Source of the DNA: Massalongia carnosa | Taxonomy: Eukaryota | Length of the DNA: 64,000 nucleotides | Reading direction: 5' to 3' | NCBI GenBank assembly: GCA_965645245.1 | Contig: OZ287068.1 | Location: 1,302,001 to 1,366,000 of the forward strand | Part shown: in pieces, positions 50,828 through 59,084 of the stretch | How the letters are laid out: every line of letters starts with the position of its first letter | How positions within the stretch are numbered: the stretch's first letter is position 1 | The notes under the pieces: model-generated | The model's input: only the letters and a program-made list of their open reading frames with translations | What the model was told of the DNA's origin: nothing | The model's database searches: none | Position numbers and translations under genes: made by a program

Positions 50828-53489
50828 TCATTTAGTCCCTACACTCGGCATGGAGTAAACCCCATTTTGGAAATTAGGCATGGGCAGCCCATTACTCAGA
50901 GGGGGAGTGTTTATGCTAGCATGAACATTGGGAGGAAGAGAGTGCTGTCCCTCGGGCAAGCTAGCGATAGCGGATGGCGGTGGCTTCGGGGGAAGATGCG
51001 CTGGTGTGCCCCATTTTGATAGTGAATTGGTAAGTGGTGCGGTAGGACCATTAGTGTGTGCTGAAGTCTTCCGGCTACTGTAGGGTTTTGAGTCATGGCT
51101 TGGATTGAAAGCACTTTGCGTAGGTCCTGAGGGTATCTGTGAGCATGCGTCTGGGTGTCGACCATATGGCGAAATCAGATTACCATTCGAAAACATCATC
51201 CCTGCTCTTGCAGTTGGTTCGTTAGGTCTACCACCGTATGACATCGTCTGAGGCGTGTTCCCAGAACCAGGCACAAAAGCTCTGATTTGCGGATTGAAAG
51301 TTTGACGAGTATAACTCCCAGGGAGCGGATGCGGCGCTCTTCCACCTTGTACACTCGACTGATAAGGTAGCTGCCCATAGGGATAAGGCACCGGGTGCAA
51401 GGCGGCCGTGGATGTTTGATCATGCATTGCGGGCGGATAGTACTGTTGCTGTTCCCTTGGCCTTTGATAGGGGTAGGGATAGGTACCTTGGGGCCATTGC
51501 TGATCAGACATCTGTGACTGTGGTCGAGAAAGCTGAACGTTATTACTTAACGCTGGCGAAGACATGGCCGGCGAATGGGGACCCATGGGTATTTGCGGCT
51601 GGATGGGCTGGTAGTACTGAGTTGCCTGGTGGTAACCAGGAAATGCAGTAGGATTTACGGTCTGCGCACTGAAAGTAGATGCATTCATTAGAGGAATCTG
51701 CTGCATCGGCATCGAGAAAGCCGGCGGGTTTTGCATGGCCTGGTATCCTTGTGGGTAGGGTTGTTGCAACATCGGAGCACTGAGTGGCGCGGCTTGATTC
51801 ATCCCAAGGTGAGGTTGGCCACTATAAGGGCTATAATAGGTCGCTGGGCTGACCGGTTGATCGTATGTTGACGCAGGATACTGTAAAGTAGGATAATAAG
51901 CGTTGAATTTCGACCGTGCTTCAAATCCATCATCATGATTTCTCTGCTTCTTTTTTTTTTTTTCATTCACCGAGCTGGCACGGGATACTTCGTTCGATAC
52001 TTCGTTGGCATCAGCAGCCTCAATGGGGTCATTATCTTCAAAGCCTTTGAAAATACGCTCTCTGGTTTCTTTGTACTTTGCTTCTCTTTCCTCTCGAGTC
52101 ATAGCCGCCTTGTCTTTTGCAGCCACAGAATCTGTTGGAGATACAACGCCAGTCCCTCGCTGACTGCCATCCCCAGTCTCGGAGCCTGTTTTGGAGGGAG
52201 CCATTGAGTTTTCTGTGGTGTTAGGTCCTGACCCGAGGGATTGGCCGTCCTTATCTAGCCCTGCTCGACGCATAATTTTCATTGTTGGCTGAAACGAGAC
52301 TGGATCGGTAGAAGTTGGCTGTCTTGAGATAGCTGACAATGGTGGAGGACTTCATGATTTACAATTAGCCATAAGAAGACTTTGGATAGTTGATTTAAAC
52401 TCACATTCGGCAGTATGGCGTTCGATATAATCGCACTGAGCTAACTGCATTATCGACAAAGTGAGTCAGTGCATAATAATCAGCCAATTTATGCGCAAGC
52501 AACCGACAGAAGGAATTGCACGGAGGCAAATCTATCATCGGTTCGCTGGATATTATATTCAGCATTACCCCACCAGTTGAAAGAAGTGTGCTTACGTTGA
52601 ATCTCTAACGAATGTGATTACTTCCTGTTCTAAACGTAGAAGGAACAAACGATCCTTGGGAGATTCGAGTGCCTCAAATAACTTTTCGTCCGGTTCTTGA
52701 TATTGAAATCCAAACGCAGCCCCAGGAGGGGCAATAACTTCCGATCGTGGAAGAACAACTGGCGTTGGTAGAGCAGAGGCCAAAGGGGGAAGAGTCATTT
52801 GCGGTGCCTCTTCCTTGATCCCAGGTATCCCTCGACGACTCACTGGATATGATCGATGGGGGCCTGGGCCCATTCTTTCCGATATCTCATAAAATTGATC
52901 TCTAAATGCTCGACTCCCGGCCTCAGATCCTACCCTCGAGCTTGCTGCCCCTGATGCGGGGCCAGAATATAAATCCTCATCATCCGCAGCTTTGACACTA
53001 GCGCTATCATCGGGCCTAAGCGACTCCTTTTCATCCAAAGCAAAAGTGGTTCCAGACGTCGCGCTTTTGCCATCAAGACTTGCCGGCTTTGTAGACGATG
53101 AGGAGATTTGAGTTTGATCATCATCGCATTTAAGCCCAATTCGAATGGAATTACGTTGGTCATGTTCAGGCATGGGGCTAGACGACGGAGATTTCTCTCG
53201 GACAACAAGCCGGGACATTGAAGTCCGGAGTTCTCCATGCAACTGTGATGCTGAGGGGCTTTCGGCCACTGTAGCTTTAGTTGACAGTGCAGGCGAAGTA
53301 GTATTTGCTGTTTTCCGTAAGTTTTCTTCCCGCACTATAAGACCCCGACCAGCCTGCGCTGGAGCAGCCATAGCGGCGATCTACCATATGTTAGCTAATC
53401 TATGAAATACGAAATTGCAGTAGAAAAGAAGTCCATACGCTTGCAAAGGACGGTTTAGAGCCATTCATTTTAGGCGCGTGCGTTGCCAT
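50828..53489 (-). CDS. R3H + SUZ domain RNA-binding protein (Rbs1/Encore-like)
   Basis: Exon 1 MATHAPKMNGSKPSFAS; FALDEKESLRPDDSASV; PKDRLFLLRLEQ; R3H DLPPCNSFCRLLAHKLADYYAL; SUZ MKIMRR...TREEREAKYKETRERIF; P/Q-rich tail. Three introns. Confidence 0.88.
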
Positions 53490-54353: not shown

Positions 54354-55573
54354 ATGAATCGCTTCCGTGGTCCGTTTGCTGCCGGACAATCAAAGGCGAC
54401 AGGACAAACCCTCTGTCAGAAATGTCTGCAACGAGATAAGTGGCTGAAGAAATGAATCTAGCCTATTAAATTCTAATATTGGGTTACGGCACTATAGTTT
54501 CGAGTGCAAGGCGACTGCTCAAGATAGGCCGTATGCATCCAGGCCGTCACGAACACAACAGCTTGCGAATCCAAAACTGGTCCCAAAACTGACAAGCGAT
54601 ATCCCAAACGACCTGCTGCGAAAGTATGGTTTGACTATAACTTTAGATAGAAAACATGCTGATGGCGTGTAGAAAGGGGGTCGCTGACGAGCAGCTGGCA
54701 AAAAATGAGGCTGAACGAGGAAGGAAACGCAAAACGGACGAAAATGAACCTCCAAATGGGTTACGAAAGCATTCAAAGTCACTATCATCACATTCATCTT
54801 CCTCAGTCTCAACCATATCTACCAATCTATCACGTTCCCCCCGACCTTCCAAACGTCGTTCCAAATCAAGGCTAAGTCATCTCCCGTTAAGCTCCGTTGA
54901 AAATCGCAAACGTAGGAGGAGCTCTAGTCACTCGTCAATGTCCTACACATCCGAATCCTCAGTTGGAAAAAGACACCAGGATCGTCCCCGAGACGCAGGC
55001 CGTCAAGTCCGACGTAGGCGTGCTTCAATCAGTCCTGGCGACCGTGGCAGAGAAAGGGGGCATCCCAGCAATGGTAGTCACAGGCGTAGAAGACGCTCAA
55101 CTTCGTCATCATCTTATACTTCCGAGTCTTCCTTTGAGAGAAGGAGACGTAAAGACCGTTCTATGAATAGGGATGTTGATATGAGCCGTCGTCGCTCGTC
55201 TATGAGTCCAGATCTGCGGGGGAGTGATCGGGGGTTTGTTGCAAAGAGAAGTAACCGACGAACAAGAAGCCGTAGTCATAGCCGAGATAGAAGCCAGGTT
55301 GCTCGAAATCGTCTGTCAATGACTCCTGGACCGTCTACAAGTTTAAACCGAGGCCATCGGACCCCAAAAGTCTCCGATTCCATGGCCAGGGACCGTGGAT
55401 CACGATATGCCAATGATAACGATCGGTATGGAAGCAGCTTCAGGGAAGCAAATCGGAACAACCCCAGAGCTGCGCGGCCTGCCCCGTTTTCTCGGCCACA
55501 GCAGAAGGGAAGGAGTCTGAGCCCCTTCAGCAAGCGTTTGGCGTTAACCCAAGCTATGAATATGGGTGCTTAG
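54354..55573 (+). CDS. CCHC zinc-knuckle, Arg/Ser-rich nuclear protein (SREK1IP1/ZCCHC10-like)
   Basis: Exons 54354-54435, 54488-54623 and 54673-55573. The spliced product reads CQKCLQRGHYSFECK...RPYASRPSRTQQL, then an RS-rich region and C-terminal RSLSPFSKRLALTQAMN. The first intron is AT-AC. Confidence 0.88.
54436..54487 (+). other. Non-canonical AT-AC intron with U2-type signals
   Basis: 5' ATAAGT, branch CTAAT at 54473-54477, 3' TTAC. Removing it restores the CX2CX4HX4C knuckle in frame. Confidence 0.8.
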
Positions 55574-55805: not shown

Positions 55806-56420
55806 CTAATCCATCTCTTCGTTTTCCCTTTCCCTCCTCTCCTCTTCCTCCTCCCGTTCACGAACATGCACTCCCTCCACCAGCTCCTCCCCCTTTATAC
55901 CCATCTCTTCTTCCCCGCTTCCCTGTGATTTCCGCTTCGCCGCCTCGATTCTATCTCTCACCAACCTCGCAATTGCGTTCTCAGTCCGCGCATTCAGTCT
56001 TTCCATCTTCCGCGCAACATCCCGCTTCAAATCCCAATTCGGTTTTTTAGGCTGCAATCGAAATAAATCAATGGGCTTCTCCTCCTTCTCTTCTTTCTCC
56101 GCTTGCCGATTCGTCTCCTCTGCTATTTGTGCCGCGCGGTCTTCTAGCGTTTCTTGATTCTCGGTAGGGGCGACCTCAAAGCCAAGTTTTGGTCCACGGG
56201 TGGTGGGATCATAATTACGCCCCGAGAGGTAATTTGTGATAACTGACGGAGGCGAAGAAGTGGTAATGGTATTCGATGAGGATTCTTCAACAATCGTGTT
56301 CCAGCGATCTTCGGCGCGAGTAGAGCTGTCAGGTTGCTTGCGTTTTAGTGATTTGAGCTTTGCAAGGCGGGCCTTGCGTTCCGTTGACGCTGCATCAAGT
56401 GAAGCATGGGTAGACGCCAT
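55806..56420 (-). CDS. cwf18: Pre-mRNA splicing factor Cwf18 (CCDC12 family)
   Basis: ERKARLAKLKSLKRK; YLSGRNYDP; IDLFRLQPKKPNWDLKRDVARKMERLNARTENAIARLVRDRI. Confidence 0.93.
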   Translation of the reverse strand: MASTHASLDAASTERKARLAKLKSLKRKQPDSSTRAEDRWNTIVEESSSNTITTSSPPSVITNYLSGRNYDPTTRGPKLGFEVAPTENQETLEDRAAQIAEETNRQAEKEEKEEKPIDLFRLQPKKPNWDLKRDVARKMERLNARTENAIARLVRDRIEAAKRKSQGSGEEEMGIKGEELVEGVHVREREEEEERRERENEEMD

Positions 56421-56657
56421 TGACTTATATTAGAAGGAACTAGCAGTTATTCAAATTCGGAAGGAATATCGCGGTTATGATCTCGTACATAATGATCCAA
56501 GACACATGAGGGGAGTTAAACCTTGAAATGTAGGGCTGATGGTTTGCGGGCCGAGATTTCCAAGCCATTTTAAAAAAAAAAAGGAAAACTGAGATCATAA
56601 ACTTCAAAATCAGGCTTTAAACCAGGACGATGTGCCCTTGAGAGGCGTAACCCCTTT

Positions 56658-59084
56658 ATGCTCACCCTCAATTCGCATATATCAATTTGCCGTATACGTT
56701 CCTGCTTACTATTTCGACTATTCATAGCAGTCGCTACCGCTCCATCCGCCATACAGCCCCAATCCTCCAGTTATCACACCACAGCTACGATCTGGCATCA
56801 GCGTCAAGTAAACCCTCCAGGTTTAGTCCAAAAGGGAGTGAAGGATGTTTTCAGCGGAAGGGAGGGGCTGCGCTGCAACATTTTAGATCGTTCTAAATCT
56901 GCAGGTGAAGGAGGCTTTGACTCCAAAACAAGCACATCGGGTCGAGGAGTCTCTAATTTAGATAAACTTTCAGGCCATCAATCAAAAAATGCTGCTCCCA
57001 ATAGGAGAAGGGATACTACAAAAATACTATTCGCTAGAAATAGGAAATCTCCAAAACATTTGTCAGGAAATATTTCTGCAGACACGCCTTGGGTCTCCAC
57101 TGATGAATTGCATCCTACGAAATCTCTGCAGCATATGCAGAGCACACGGGCCGAATCCAGGGACAGCAATGGGCGGGTTTACTTTCATGTTGGTGTCGAC
57201 AAGGAGAATTCTACTCGAGGCGGACCCGGGACATTATCTAAGCGACCTAGACTTGTTTCCATAAGATCCTTCCGGAATCTAACGACGAGGCATATAAAAG
57301 ATAATGATCTCGACGACTTTTCGACATTTTGGTCCAAGAAGTACGTTTTCATGGCTAAGCAACAGCAATCTCGAGACATTGTGCCGAACGCTAGATTTAG
57401 AAGAGGAGTCTTGAGTATGGTCAACCTCGACATGGATCGAGGAACTATTGCACGCAAGTGGTTAAGTCATGATCCAGCAACACGGAACCGACTTTGGGAA
57501 AAAATGATGCTTCTAGCCTTGCAGCGCTATCCAGAGCGCGCTTTGAAAGCTTTAGACGTGGCAATATTATTCTGCGTTCCTAAAATCCCAAGGCATAGAA
57601 TCGAAGATTGCCTGGACCACCTCGCTGCCATCTATCTCGAGCGTGTCAAGAACCCTCCTCCTTGGCATATCAACATGATATATCATCTAGTGTACAATTT
57701 TGCCAAGACTTCTCGAGTAGAAGACGAGGAAGCCAATTCAATCCCGCAGCGAACAGTCTATTGGGTCTTACATCATTTTGATGTTGAGCAAGTGCAGACT
57801 CTATACGAGGTACTATGCAGCCAGCGGATTCGTATATACCCCATGACTTTACTACATTTTTTAGCCAGGTTCATGGACCAGGGGGAACTACCATTATCAA
57901 TAGATGTTCTTGAAAGAATCAGCAAGTCTGGCATTGATACAAGCTTAGATCCTGTTCAATCTGCATGCGTCAAGCTGATACGCGTTCATATTGGCAGCAA
58001 TAATAATAATTCTTTGCCTAAAGAATTGTATAGAACTCGCACCTATATTCTAGCTCAGATTCTTCAAATGGGTATCTGCCCTGCTATCGCCATGTATAAT
58101 GCTATGCTACTAAATACTATAGAGGCTTCCGAATATCAACTTCTAATGCCCTTCTATAAGACGATTATTGAGAACGGCCTAAAACCAAATAGGACCACAT
58201 ATGCCTACCTACTTAGAGGAGTAAAAGAGAGCTTGGACTACGATATTTTTAGAGTTGTTGCCCAAGATGCAGAAGCTGATGGTACTTTACATCGCGATCC
58301 ACGCCTAGTTTGCGATCTCCTCGAAGCTATCTTCAAGCTAGAGGAAACCACTGGCCAACGGGTGTTCTTTGATAAACTACTGCCGACATACAAAAAATAC
58401 TGCGATTTAAGCCTTCTCCAAAGCTTAGGTCTAACAGAAGCTCTCGTAGATGACCCAGAAGCTCCGGATTATCCAGTTATGTCGCCGTCACCGAGAACTT
58501 TAGGCCTTATGCTCATAGCATATATCAAGCAGTACCCCACCATCAGAATGTGGAGTATTTACAAGCGGTATCGACGTTTGGTGAAGCAAAGACATCCTCA
58601 GATAACAGTTCTTGCAGGGACTGATCATATCGCTAATGCGTTTTTAATGACCTTCAGAGAGCAGCCTAGGACGTTGCAAAAGGGCACCGCTGTAGTCAAA
58701 GATATGCTGGAGGCCTTCGGCAGTGTCAATCCTGCCAATACCCAAGACTCTGAAGCTTTCAAGTTCGCTGCCCCTTCGGTTCAGACCTGGTCTATTCTTC
58801 TTGCGGGTCATATCCGCCACGGCCAAGCGAGAGCAGCCGAGAAGATCCTGTCAATGATGCGCAGTAGAGGCTTAGAGCCTACTCAGGTCACCTGGAATAG
58901 CCTCATTTCTGGGTACGCGGCGATGCAAGACATTAACAGCGCCGTAAATACAGTTCAGAGGATGGAGGCAGAGGATTATTCGATGGATAGCTACACTTTG
59001 AAAGGCTTAGGACGATTTCACAACCGAGCTCGCTTGTTGCAGGCGTTGAAGGATACTTTAGGAGACAAGCTGGAGGCTGAGTAG
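56658..59084 (+). CDS. Mitochondrial pentatricopeptide-repeat (PPR) protein
   Basis: 808-aa ORF with a presequence-like N-terminus and PPR repeats such as GLKPNRTTYAYLL, PSVQTWSILLAGH..HGQARAAEKILSMMRSRGLEP and TQVTWNSLISGYA. Confidence 0.88.
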   Translation: MLTLNSHISICRIRSCLLFRLFIAVATAPSAIQPQSSSYHTTATIWHQRQVNPPGLVQKGVKDVFSGREGLRCNILDRSKSAGEGGFDSKTSTSGRGVSNLDKLSGHQSKNAAPNRRRDTTKILFARNRKSPKHLSGNISADTPWVSTDELHPTKSLQHMQSTRAESRDSNGRVYFHVGVDKENSTRGGPGTLSKRPRLVSIRSFRNLTTRHIKDNDLDDFSTFWSKKYVFMAKQQQSRDIVPNARFRRGVLSMVNLDMDRGTIARKWLSHDPATRNRLWEKMMLLALQRYPERALKALDVAILFCVPKIPRHRIEDCLDHLAAIYLERVKNPPPWHINMIYHLVYNFAKTSRVEDEEANSIPQRTVYWVLHHFDVEQVQTLYEVLCSQRIRIYPMTLLHFLARFMDQGELPLSIDVLERISKSGIDTSLDPVQSACVKLIRVHIGSNNNNSLPKELYRTRTYILAQILQMGICPAIAMYNAMLLNTIEASEYQLLMPFYKTIIENGLKPNRTTYAYLLRGVKESLDYDIFRVVAQDAEADGTLHRDPRLVCDLLEAIFKLEETTGQRVFFDKLLPTYKKYCDLSLLQSLGLTEALVDDPEAPDYPVMSPSPRTLGLMLIAYIKQYPTIRMWSIYKRYRRLVKQRHPQITVLAGTDHIANAFLMTFREQPRTLQKGTAVVKDMLEAFGSVNPANTQDSEAFKFAAPSVQTWSILLAGHIRHGQARAAEKILSMMRSRGLEPTQVTWNSLISGYAAMQDINSAVNTVQRMEAEDYSMDSYTLKGLGRFHNRARLLQALKDTLGDKLEAE

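What the first reader, a model, noticed from the sequence alone, without database searches (positions are those of the whole stretch)
54436..54487. Natural AT-AC intron, apparently U2-spliced, splitting the CCHC zinc knuckle of an RS-rich protein
Seen in sequence: exon 1 ends CQKCLQR-G| and the intron opens ATAAGT, the fungal GTAAGT consensus with A at +1. It has a normal CTAAT branch point about 11 nt from the end and closes TTAC. Splicing gives CQKCLQRGHYSFEC, a perfect CX2CX4HX4C. Retention hits TGA a few codons into the intron. The GT-AG alternative I found (weak GTGGCT at 54440 to TAG at 54497) stays in frame but deletes the zinc-ligand His (CQKCLQRDNFEC). Established knowledge: Dikarya lack the U12 spliceosome, the U12 signals (ATATCCT, TCCTTAAC) are absent here, and A..C termini are a tolerated compensating pair for the major spliceosome. 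Inference: this is a deliberately suboptimal intron that could act as a splicing-fidelity sensor or autoregulatory switch with three outcomes (intact knuckle, His-less isoform, NMD target). The host is a likely splicing-associated protein lying tail-to-tail with cwf18. Standard gene predictors would mis-model it.
Basis: partly seen in the sequence, partly recalled or inferred. Interest (0 to 1): 0.85.

Follow-up and report, generated by a model that had tools for sequence, protein, structure and literature searches.

The report
Ancient AT-AC intron in fungal zinc-knuckle gene
A short intron with the rare ends AT...AC splits the zinc-knuckle of a ZCCHC10-like gene in this lichen-type fungus, the same odd intron is kept in relatives across filamentous ascomycetes, and it causes many public gene models of this family to be wrong.

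Summary
Positions 54436-54487 are a 52-nt intron, ATAAGT...CTAAT...TAC. Removing it joins exon 1 and exon 2 into an intact CX2CX4HX4C knuckle. Pfam zf-CCHC_3 matches profile positions 2-13 in exon 1 and 15-41 in exon 2, so only the split Gly codon is missing.

Contigs from three studies show the same A and C, so this is not a sequencing error.

I resolved 77 orthologous metagenome loci. 62 carry an intron at this exact phase-1 site. All begin AT and end AC (59) or AA (3), and none is GT-AG. The other 15 have lost the intron. The second intron of the same gene is GT-AG in all 42 distinct sequences.

The signals are major-spliceosome type (AT-R-N-G-T, CTRAY 10-12 nt from the end). No U12 motifs are present.

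The F. graminearum orthologue FGSG_10073 has a published 52-nt AT-AC intron found by RNA-seq.

100 of the 169 database proteins I retrieved lack the intact knuckle.

Verdict: a real, ancient U2-type AT-AC intron, a new member of a known kind. No RNA data exist for this organism. The "fidelity sensor" idea is untested and has no specific support.

The parts
54354..54435 (+). Exon 1 of the zf-CCHC_3 (ZCCHC10-like) gene: start ATG, MNRF...CQKCLQR plus the first base of the Gly codon
   Evidence: Pfam PF13917 profile 2-13. The N-terminus matches orthologues.
54436..54487 (+). AT-AC intron, 52 nt, phase 1
   Evidence: Same site and same termini type in 62 of 77 resolved orthologous loci.
54436..54441 (+). 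5' splice site ATAAGT (U2-type consensus with A at +1)
   Evidence: Family pattern A-T-R-N-G-T in 39 distinct introns.
54473..54477 (+). Branch-point motif CTAAT, branch A at 54476, 11 nt from the intron end
   Evidence: CTRAY at 10-12 nt in 34 of 39 distinct introns.
54485..54487 (+). 3' splice site TAC (YAC in place of YAG)
   Evidence: -3 Y in 38/39, -2 A in 39/39, -1 C in 37/39
54453..54455 (+). In-frame TGA met if the intron is retained
54440..54497 (+). Alternative GT...AG pair (GTGGCT...TATAG). It stays in frame but removes the zinc-ligand His. This is the form chosen in one public annotation of a relative.
   Evidence: P0013 Sticta canariensis and P0035 Polytolypa hystricis models.
54488..54623 (+). 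Exon 2: last two bases of the Gly codon, then HYSFEC...LLRK plus 2 bases
   Evidence: Pfam PF13917 E 2.6e-11, profile 15-41
54624..54672 (+). Intron 2, ordinary GT-AG (GTATGG...CTGAT...TAG), 49 nt
   Evidence: 42 of 42 distinct orthologous sequences are GT-AG
54673..55573 (+). Exon 3: Arg/Ser-rich tail ending RSLSPFSKRLALTQAMNMGA, stop TAG
   Evidence: The C-terminal motif is conserved.
55806..56420 (-). Neighbouring cwf18 splicing-factor gene, tail-to-tail
   Evidence: Pfam PF08315 E 4.4e-44. Same arrangement in 36 of 80 loci.

Best explanation
Positions 54436-54487 are a genuine spliceosomal intron with AT...AC ends. It is removed by the major (U1/U2/U4/U5/U6) spliceosome from the pre-mRNA of a ZCCHC10-family zinc-knuckle / RS-rich protein.

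How recognition most likely works:
- The 5' site is recognised through its otherwise strong consensus: -1 G, +3 R, +5 G, +6 T.
- U2 pairs with the CTRAY branch site.
- In the second step the 3' YAC, held 10-12 nt from the branch A, is accepted because A(+1) and C(-1) form the tolerated substitute for the usual G(+1)-G(-1) contact.

The intron is old. It predates the split of Lecanoromycetes, Eurotiomycetes, Dothideomycetes, Leotiomycetes and Sordariomycetes.

It has stayed AT-AC because of an epistatic lock. Changing only the first base (giving GT-AC) or only the last base (giving AT-AG) should break the second step. The only routes out are a simultaneous double change or clean loss of the whole intron.

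What is shown and what is inferred:
- Shown: the sequence, the conservation, intron loss several times, the absence of any GT-AG conversion among the loci examined, and RNA-level use in one orthologue.
- Inferred: the spliceosome type, the A-C contact and the lock.
For: 1. Exact junction. Pfam PF13917 covers profile 2-13 in exon 1 and 15-41 in exon 2. The spliced frame is open for 372 aa and is 258/372 identical to the Sticta canariensis protein.

2. Not an error. The termini are reproduced in contigs of three studies.

3. Conservation. Of the 80 best loci out of 339 relatives, 77 were resolved. 62 have an intron at this site: 59 AT-AC, 3 AT-AA, 0 GT-AG. 15 have none. With the window there are 39 distinct intron sequences, 37 AT-AC and 2 AT-AA.

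4. U2-type signals. +3 is A in 34 and G in 5. +5 is G in 39/39. +6 is T in 37/39. CTRAY occurs in 34/39 at 10-12 nt from the end. Lengths are 46-59 nt. ATATCC occurs in 0/39 and CCTT[AG]AC in 0/39.

5. Internal control. Intron 2 of the same loci is GT-AG in 42/42 distinct sequences. Its lengths are 48-283 nt, branch distance 9-18 nt, and +6 is T in 28/42. Fisher p = 0.0017 for +6 and Levene p = 7e-10 for the spread of branch distance. The sequences are related, so these tests are descriptive only.

6. RNA evidence in an orthologue. Zhao et al. [quoted passage not shown] P0091 carries the name FGSG_10073, has PF13917 and was found with this family. A newer F. graminearum model (P0100) has the intact knuckle.

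7. Protein models. 86 of 154 proteins read Arg just before the His. That is what a last intron base of C (or A) in front of the G-N of the Gly codon gives, and it excludes G.

8. Lineage. Passages in PMC2846911 and PMC11347168 report no U12 splicing or minor snRNAs in Ascomycota.

9. A-C rescue. A passage in Sheth et al. 2006 (PMC1557818) says a G-to-A change at the first intron base is rescued, less efficiently, by G-to-C at the last base in yeast and human U2-type introns.

10. Escape routes. Intron absence needs 6 changes on a tree of the loci, at least 4 of them forced by well-supported branches. That tree is weak, with 69 columns.
Against: - There is no RNA evidence for this organism. No listed run is on record as RNA, and all laid contigs are unspliced and DNA-like.
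- The genome is not held, so I could not check for the absence of U11/U12/U4atac/U6atac in this organism.
- The snRNA dependence of this intron has never been tested.
- Three loci end AA rather than AC. The simple A-C pairing account does not explain this.
- The 10-12 nt branch distance also fits the U12-type spacing range (recalled).
- The lock is an inference. It predicts what is seen, but so would selection for a regulatory role.
- The 80 loci are the best-scoring relatives only, and their taxonomy is inferred from nearest named proteins.
Confidence: 0.88

Rival explanations
1. Regulatory sensor. Selection keeps the AT-AC ends because a deliberately weak, second-step-limited intron lets the cell, or the protein itself, tune the output between intact protein, a His-less isoform and an unproductive transcript.
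For: - The termini are conserved across five classes with no conversion.
- The intron is kept unusually short (46-59 nt) with tight branch spacing, compared with intron 2.
- The human family member ZCCHC10 was detected only in the catalytic C complex of spliceosomes (PMC3923134, passage).
- A chordate ZCCHC10 cluster carries the same Pfam family (a lead only).
- The neighbouring gene is the splicing factor cwf18.
Against: - At least 4 lineages lost the intron altogether and kept the gene. Any such control is therefore dispensable.
- The outcome of retention is not conserved: 20 stop, 11 frameshift, 8 in-frame open, of 39.
- The alternative AG is absent in 6 of 63 intron-bearing records and is equally present where there is no intron.
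- The His-less form is known only as a predictor's model, not from RNA.
- The tight length and spacing are equally expected if a YAC 3' site can only be found by its position.
Confidence: 0.12
2. Fossil of a U12-type intron. An ancestral minor-class AT-AC intron at this site was taken over by the major spliceosome when Dikarya lost the minor one, and kept its termini. This concerns origin and is compatible with the best explanation.
For: - AT-AC and AT-AA are termini known for U12-type introns (recalled).
- The branch-to-3' distance of 10-12 nt lies in the U12 range (the range is recalled).
- Minor-to-major conversion is an accepted route (PMC10639083 passages).
- Early-diverging fungi keep minor snRNAs (PMC11347168 passage).
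Against: - No residual U12 motif in 39 distinct introns.
- ZCCHC10 is not among the human or mouse minor-spliceosome-responsive introns in the one supplementary file of PMC11347168 that is held. Only ZCCHC8 appears. That table is not a full list of minor introns.
- A search for ZCCHC10 with U12 found one paper, which was not opened and whose title is unrelated.
- No DNA of orthologues outside Pezizomycotina could be examined.
Confidence: 0.2
3. The productive mRNA uses the GT(54440)-AG(54497) pair, or the intron is not removed at all, and the AT-AC reading is a coincidence. Equivalently, the locus is a pseudogene or an assembly error.
For: GT-AG is the default. Public annotations of two relatives use this model (P0013, P0035).
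Against: - It deletes the zinc-ligand His and two profile positions of a domain that is otherwise conserved.
- 69 of 169 database proteins carry the intact knuckle, among them short-contig entries from run assemblies.
- RNA-seq of F. graminearum gave the AT-AC junction, and the authors list confirmation primers for it.
- The termini are invariant in 39 distinct introns while the interiors differ.
- The bases are reproduced in three studies.
Confidence: 0.03
4. The intron is removed by another machinery: the U12-type spliceosome, or an IRE1/tRNA-ligase type cut-and-join.
For: AT-AC ends are typical of U12-type introns. Small unconventional introns do exist in fungi (HAC1; recalled).
Against: - U12 5' and branch motifs are absent, 0/39.
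- Ascomycota lack the minor spliceosome according to PMC2846911 and PMC11347168 (passages).
- There is no stable local fold around the junctions (z = -0.29).
- The conserved +3 to +6 and CTRAY signals are spliceosomal hallmarks.
Confidence: 0.02

Closest known systems
U2-type AT-AC ('AT-AC II') introns, e.g. human SCN4A/SCN5A and TAF2 (Sheth et al. 2006, PMC1557818, passages seen)
   Same: AT...AC ends on an otherwise U2-type 5' splice site. Conserved at the same site in orthologues over long distances. Very rare: 24 among about 610,000 introns in five species in that survey.
   Different: - Here the host lineage has no minor spliceosome at all.
- The intron is very short (46-59 nt) with a fixed branch-to-3' distance.
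- It is conserved across five fungal classes with 0 conversions among 62 intron-bearing loci.
- snRNA dependence has not been tested here.
FGSG_10073 AT-AC intron of Fusarium graminearum (Zhao et al. 2013, PMC3577648; main-text passages and supplementary tables seen)
   Same: Orthologous gene (PF13917). Same length (52 nt). Same kind of termini. The old gene model was likewise wrong.
   Different: In that paper it is one row in a table of non-canonical sites. The gene family, the position inside the zinc knuckle and the conservation are not discussed in the passages I saw. I did not see the F. graminearum DNA itself.
U12-type AT-AC introns
   Same: Terminal dinucleotides, the occasional AT-AA variant, and a short branch-to-3' distance.
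   Different: There is no ATATCC 5' motif and no TCCTTAAC-like branch site (0/39). The lineage is reported to lack U11/U12/U4atac/U6atac.
GC-AG introns with compensating strong 5' consensus
   Same: A non-canonical terminal base goes with a stronger match at the other 5' positions. Here +5 G is 39/39 and +6 T is 37/39, against 40/42 and 28/42 in intron 2.
   Different: GC-AG switches freely to GT-AG by one change. AT-AC needs two coupled changes.

Membership tests
U2-type (major spliceosome) AT-AC intron | Intron begins AT and ends AC at the junction that restores the reading frame | tested here: met
U2-type (major spliceosome) AT-AC intron | 5' splice site fits the U2-type consensus apart from +1 (R at +3, G at +5, T at +6) | tested here: met
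   ATAAGT in the window. A-T-R-N-G-T in 39 distinct orthologous introns.
U2-type (major spliceosome) AT-AC intron | Ordinary fungal branch site (CTRAY) upstream of the 3' end | tested here: met
   CTAAT at 54473-54477. Present in 34/39, with near-matches in the other 5.
U2-type (major spliceosome) AT-AC intron | Junction seen in RNA | not testable with these tools
   No RNA run is listed for this organism. It is met for the orthologue FGSG_10073 in print.
U2-type (major spliceosome) AT-AC intron | Splicing depends on U1/U2/U4/U6, not on U11/U12/U4atac/U6atac | not testable with these tools
   No genome is held. The literature reports no minor snRNAs in Ascomycota.
U12-type AT-AC intron | 5' splice site ATATCCTT | tested here: not met
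   ATAAGTGG in the window. ATATCC in 0/39.
U12-type AT-AC intron | Branch site TCCTTAAC about 10-15 nt from the 3' end | tested here: not met
   The motif is absent, 0/39. Only the spacing (10-12 nt) agrees.
zf-CCHC_3 / ZCCHC10 protein family (PF13917) | Match to PF13917 above the gathering score | tested here: met
   Exon 2 alone scores 43.7 bits against a cut-off of 27
zf-CCHC_3 / ZCCHC10 protein family (PF13917) | Intact CX2CX4HX4C knuckle | tested here: met
   Intact only after AT-AC splicing
zf-CCHC_3 / ZCCHC10 protein family (PF13917) | Association with the spliceosome | not tested
   Human ZCCHC10 was found only in the C complex (PMC3923134, passage). Nothing is known for fungi.
Autoregulatory / NMD-switch ('poison') intron | Retention conservedly gives a premature stop | tested here: not met
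   20 stop inside, 11 frameshift, 8 in-frame open, of 39
Autoregulatory / NMD-switch ('poison') intron | Splicing responds to the level of the encoded protein | not testable with these tools
   Needs an experiment
IRE1-type unconventional intron | Paired stem-loops at both cut sites | tested here: not met
   Fold z = -0.29. Spliceosomal signals are conserved instead.

The most novel reading that the evidence does not exclude
Selection keeps the AT-AC ends as a built-in gauge of second-step splicing. In humans this protein family sits in the catalytic (C) spliceosome. Its own message carries the one kind of intron whose removal depends on the non-standard first-base/last-base contact in step 2. 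The amount of intact knuckle protein would then report on, and feed back to, the stringency of 3' splice-site proofreading. The circuit would be conserved since the common ancestor of most filamentous ascomycetes.
Probability: 0.1. Interest if true: 0.85.

Novelty: new member of a known kind. Interest (0 to 1): 0.55.

Why it matters
1. It is a clean natural case of a major-spliceosome AT-AC intron in a lineage without a minor spliceosome. It is conserved at one site in five classes of fungi, with 0 conversions to GT-AG and at least four clean losses. This is what a two-base epistatic lock predicts. It can be tested in model fungi and bears on how splice-site pairs evolve.

2. It has a practical cost. 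100 of the 169 public proteins of this family that I retrieved lack the zinc knuckle, and at least 89 of them in ways traceable to this intron. Annotation pipelines that allow only GT/GC-AG systematically break this gene.

3. The strict length (46-59 nt) and branch distance (10-12 nt) suggest how a YAC 3' site is found, namely by position.

4. The host protein belongs to a family seen in the catalytic spliceosome, which makes a feedback role worth one experiment.

Tried and rejected
- RNA evidence for this organism: no RNA holder listed. The four runs I laid are all contigs with no joints, i.e. DNA-like.
- Whole genome: none is held, so I made no snRNA census and no genome-wide count of AT-AC introns.
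- Rfam on the window at gathering scores: 0 matches.
- RNA fold across the intron: no more stable than shuffles (z = -0.29). The IRE1-type idea was dropped.
- PDB profile search: only a low-complexity hit to CIR1 (E 8e-4). No solved relative was found.
- Earlier findings of this scan: nothing by words or by sequence.
- Literature searches:
  - 'AT-AC' + 'zinc knuckle': 2 papers, listings only, unrelated by title and abstract start.
  - 'ZCCHC10' + 'U12': 1 paper, listing only, unrelated by title.
  - 'FGSG_10073': 0 papers.
  - 'PF13917' / 'zf-CCHC_3' / 'ZCCHC10', at least two terms: 0 papers.
  - A broad AT-AC intron / filamentous fungi search returned nothing on this gene in the 15 titles listed, and none of those held the phrase 'AT-AC intron'.
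  - So I found no description of this intron's conservation in the library searched. Subscription journals are not covered.
- PMC3091305 matched 'AT-AC' only through PKS domain strings and is irrelevant.
- First attempt at intron 2 boundaries: it took the shortest in-frame pair and gave wrong GC/AT donors. I redid it with the donor fixed at the orthologous position.
- The count of the alternative GT..AG pair is a script index error (it reported 0 of 39) and should be ignored. The usable figures are GT at +5/+6 in 37/39 and Ser AGY in 57/63 intron-bearing and 15/15 intron-less records.
- One search printed nothing because the filter was too strict. I repeated it. No locus is above 92% identical to a named protein, so no locus could be tied to a named species.
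- Deep origin (Basidiomycota, early fungi, animals, plants): not examined.
Full report
**What is in the window**

On the + strand, an ATG at 54354 opens MNRF...CQKCLQR. After one further G (54435) the sequence reads ATAAGTGGCT ... TTCTAATATTGGGTTAC (54436-54487, 52 nt) and then GG CAC TAT AGT TTC GAG TGC.

- Joining 54435 to 54488 gives ...CQKCLQRGHYSFEC...
- With a second, ordinary intron (54624-54672, GTATGG...CTGAT...TAG) also removed, the frame is open for 372 aa and ends ...LALTQAMNMGA.
- Retention reads DKWLKK and then TGA at 54453-54455.
- The only GT-AG alternative (54440...54497) stays in frame and gives CQKCLQRDNFEC, without the zinc-ligand His.
- The branch motif CTAAT is at 54473-54477, with its A 11 nt from the intron end.

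**The junction is exact**

Pfam zf-CCHC_3 (PF13917, 41 positions) matches exon 1 at profile positions 2-13. It matches exon 2, starting at the His, at positions 15-41 (E 2.6e-11, 43.7 bits, cut-off 27). The single missing position is the split Gly codon. The gene downstream on the opposite strand is cwf18 (PF08315, E 4.4e-44).

**Not a sequencing error**

No whole genome is held and no run is on record as RNA. The four runs I laid are all contigs.
- X1 and X3 are near-identical to the window and may be its source.
- X4 is a lichen metagenome of another study. It covers all 2.6 kb with variant sites, and none of the listed sites is at 54436 or 54487.
- X5 is a third study. One contig spans 54379-54672 without a difference.
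- No joints were seen, as expected of DNA.

**Relatives**

A search with exon 2 found 52 proteins. The closest are from lichen-forming Lecanoromycetes. The spliced window protein is 258/372 identical to the Sticta canariensis entry (Peltigerales).

Many of the retrieved sequences were visibly wrong at this very place. Across all 169 proteins fetched:
- 69 have the intact knuckle.
- 13 read straight through an insertion that starts with Asp and ends with Arg.
- 74 begin or join inside that insertion (...R-H-[YF]-S-[YF]-E-C, with no CX2C).
- 2 are the His-less form (Sticta canariensis and Polytolypa hystricis).
- 8 are cut before the His.
- 3 are otherwise odd.

The Asp after Arg/Lys means the intron starts A then T or C, after the exon's G. 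The Arg before His (86 proteins, against Gly in 67 and Ser in 1) means the last intron base is C or A, not G.

The 169 are not a random sample. They are 90%-identity cluster representatives retrieved with two queries, and the second query favours Hypocreales.

**DNA of orthologues**

A scan of metagenome contigs found 339 stretches that encode a relative, and the best 80 were returned.
- 77 could be resolved. L012 and L042 are cut in exon 1, although the visible tail of L012 ends ...CTAC. L056 failed my pattern.
- 62 have an intron at exactly this phase-1 position. 59 are AT...AC and 3 are AT...AA (L067, L080, L069). None is GT...AG.
- 15 have no intron there.

With the window there are 39 distinct intron sequences whose interiors are mostly unrelated. 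Their features:
- +1 A and +2 T in 39/39.
- +3 is A in 34 and G in 5.
- +5 is G in 39/39, and +6 is T in 37/39.
- -3 is a pyrimidine in 38/39, -2 is A in 39/39, and -1 is C in 37/39.
- CTRAY occurs in 34/39 with the branch A 10-12 nt from the end. By my reading of the printed sequences, the other five have CTGAG, CCAAC or CTTAC at 10-11 nt.
- Lengths are 46-59 nt.
- U12 motifs: ATATCC in 0/39 and CCTT[AG]AC in 0/39.

**Control within the same genes**

With the donor fixed at the orthologous position, the second intron gave 42 distinct sequences.
- All are GT-AG.
- Lengths are 48-283 nt.
- The branch distance is 9-18 nt.
- +6 is T in 28/42.
- Two loci were unresolved and 12 lack this intron.

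So the AT-AC intron has a tighter 5' consensus, length and branch spacing than its neighbour (Fisher p = 0.0017, Levene p = 7e-10). The sequences are related, so these tests are descriptive only.

**Losses**
- Three loci lack intron 1 but keep intron 2 (L020, L023, L024).
- Twelve lack both. Among them are contigs of 21.8 to 227 kb, so they are genomic and not cDNA.
- On a tree of the knuckle region, absence needs 6 changes, at least 4 of them forced by well-supported branches. The tree has only 69 columns and is weak.

**Breadth**

DNA-level AT-AC loci sit next to named anchors as follows.
- Eurotiales: L044/L046 are about 91% identical to the Thermoascus aurantiacus protein.
- Lecanoromycetes: the window, and L009 next to Lasallia.
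- Groups anchored by Leotiomycetes, Sordariomycetes and Dothideomycetes proteins.

Protein-level signatures come from several named species.
- Tricladium (Leotiomycetes).
- Patellaria (Dothideomycetes).
- Polytolypa (Eurotiomycetes).
- Many Sordariomycetes.

All five classes lie in leotiomyceta. I saw nothing from earlier-branching Pezizomycotina or from outside the subphylum.

**RNA evidence in an orthologue**

Zhao et al. 2013 (PMC3577648) list 28 F. graminearum genes with non-canonical sites found by RNA-seq. They state that seven genes with such sites are shown in a figure and that all these sites were confirmed by Sanger sequencing (passage). Their tables give the following.
- FGSG_10073, minus strand, intron 738569-738620 (52 nt), AT-AC.
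- A model revision from 738572-738860 to that intron.

The database protein named FGSG_10073 (P0091, 261 aa, PF13917) came up in my family search and begins inside the intron. A newer F. graminearum model (P0100) has ...CQKCLKRGHYSYEC.... I did not see the Fusarium DNA.

**How it most likely works**

The lineage is reported to lack U12 splicing (PMC2846911 conclusions; PMC11347168). The signals are those of ordinary fungal introns except for the two end bases.

Sheth et al. 2006 (PMC1557818, passages) describe U2-type 'AT-AC II' introns. Examples are SCN4A/5A, which is conserved from human to fish, and TAF2, which is shared by human and fly. There were 24 such introns among about 610,000. The same paper notes that a first-base G-to-A change is rescued, less efficiently, by a last-base G-to-C change in yeast and human.

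I therefore read this as a major-spliceosome intron in which A(+1) and C(-1) replace the G-G contact of the second step.

Either single reversion should be defective. That would explain 0 conversions among 62 intron-bearing loci alongside several clean losses. The strict length and the 10-12 nt spacing fit a 3' site that must be found by position, because it lacks AG. These mechanistic steps are inference.

**The sensor idea**

Nothing specific supports it.
- Retention outcome is not conserved: 20 stop, 11 frameshift, 8 in-frame open, of 39.
- The alternative AG is simply the Ser codon AGY. It is present in 57/63 intron-bearing records and in 15/15 intron-less ones.
- Several lineages do without the intron.

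In its favour:
- Human ZCCHC10 was detected only in the C complex (PMC3923134 passage).
- A chordate ZCCHC10 cluster carries PF13917 (a lead only).
- cwf18 is a conserved neighbour, found downstream on the opposite strand in 36 of 80 loci.

I put it at about 0.1.

**Origin**

A U12 fossil is possible. The termini, the AT-AA variants and the branch spacing would fit. But no motif remains. ZCCHC10 is not in the table of minor-spliceosome-responsive introns that I could search, and that table is not a full list. I give it 0.2.

**Novelty**

The kind of intron is known, and the Fusarium instance is in print as a table row. In the library I searched, I found no account of this intron's conservation, its position in the knuckle, or its effect on annotation. 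I rate it a new member of a known kind, of moderate interest.

Noticed in passing
L067, L080, L069 (intron 1, 3' end): Three loci, with two distinct sequences, end the intron in AA instead of AC (...CCTTTAA|GCC and ...CATGCAA|GCC). The rest of the gene is intact and intron 2 is a normal GT-AG. Shifting the boundary to the following AG would break the frame. A(+1) with A(-1) seems to be tolerated.
   Followed up: partly
window 55806-56420 (-) and 36 of 80 loci: The splicing factor gene cwf18 lies tail-to-tail just downstream of the zinc-knuckle gene. This arrangement recurs in 36 of 80 loci (tblastn, all on the opposite strand). Many of the other loci are too short to tell.
   Followed up: partly
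window 54486-54524, run X3 record 3: A 151-nt, low-depth contig matches only the start of exon 2, with 5 differences. Before the match it carries ...GCTGACCATCCCTC, and the match itself begins with the AC. It looks like the same AT-AC-type intron end (CTGAC 10 nt from AC) from a second fungus in that sample.
   Followed up: no
PMC3577648 supplementary table: The same F. graminearum table lists a second AT-AC intron, in FGSG_08743 (347 nt). By the coordinates in the UTR table it seems to lie in the 5' UTR. I did not examine it.
   Followed up: no
window 56601-59084 (+) and 52592-53380 (-): There are two long open frames beside the locus: 827 aa on the + strand and a 262-aa Ser/Pro-rich frame on the - strand. 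Neither was examined.
   Followed up: no
L020, L023, L024: These loci have lost the AT-AC intron precisely but keep the GT-AG intron 2 (55 nt). Twelve other loci lack both introns.
   Followed up: yes
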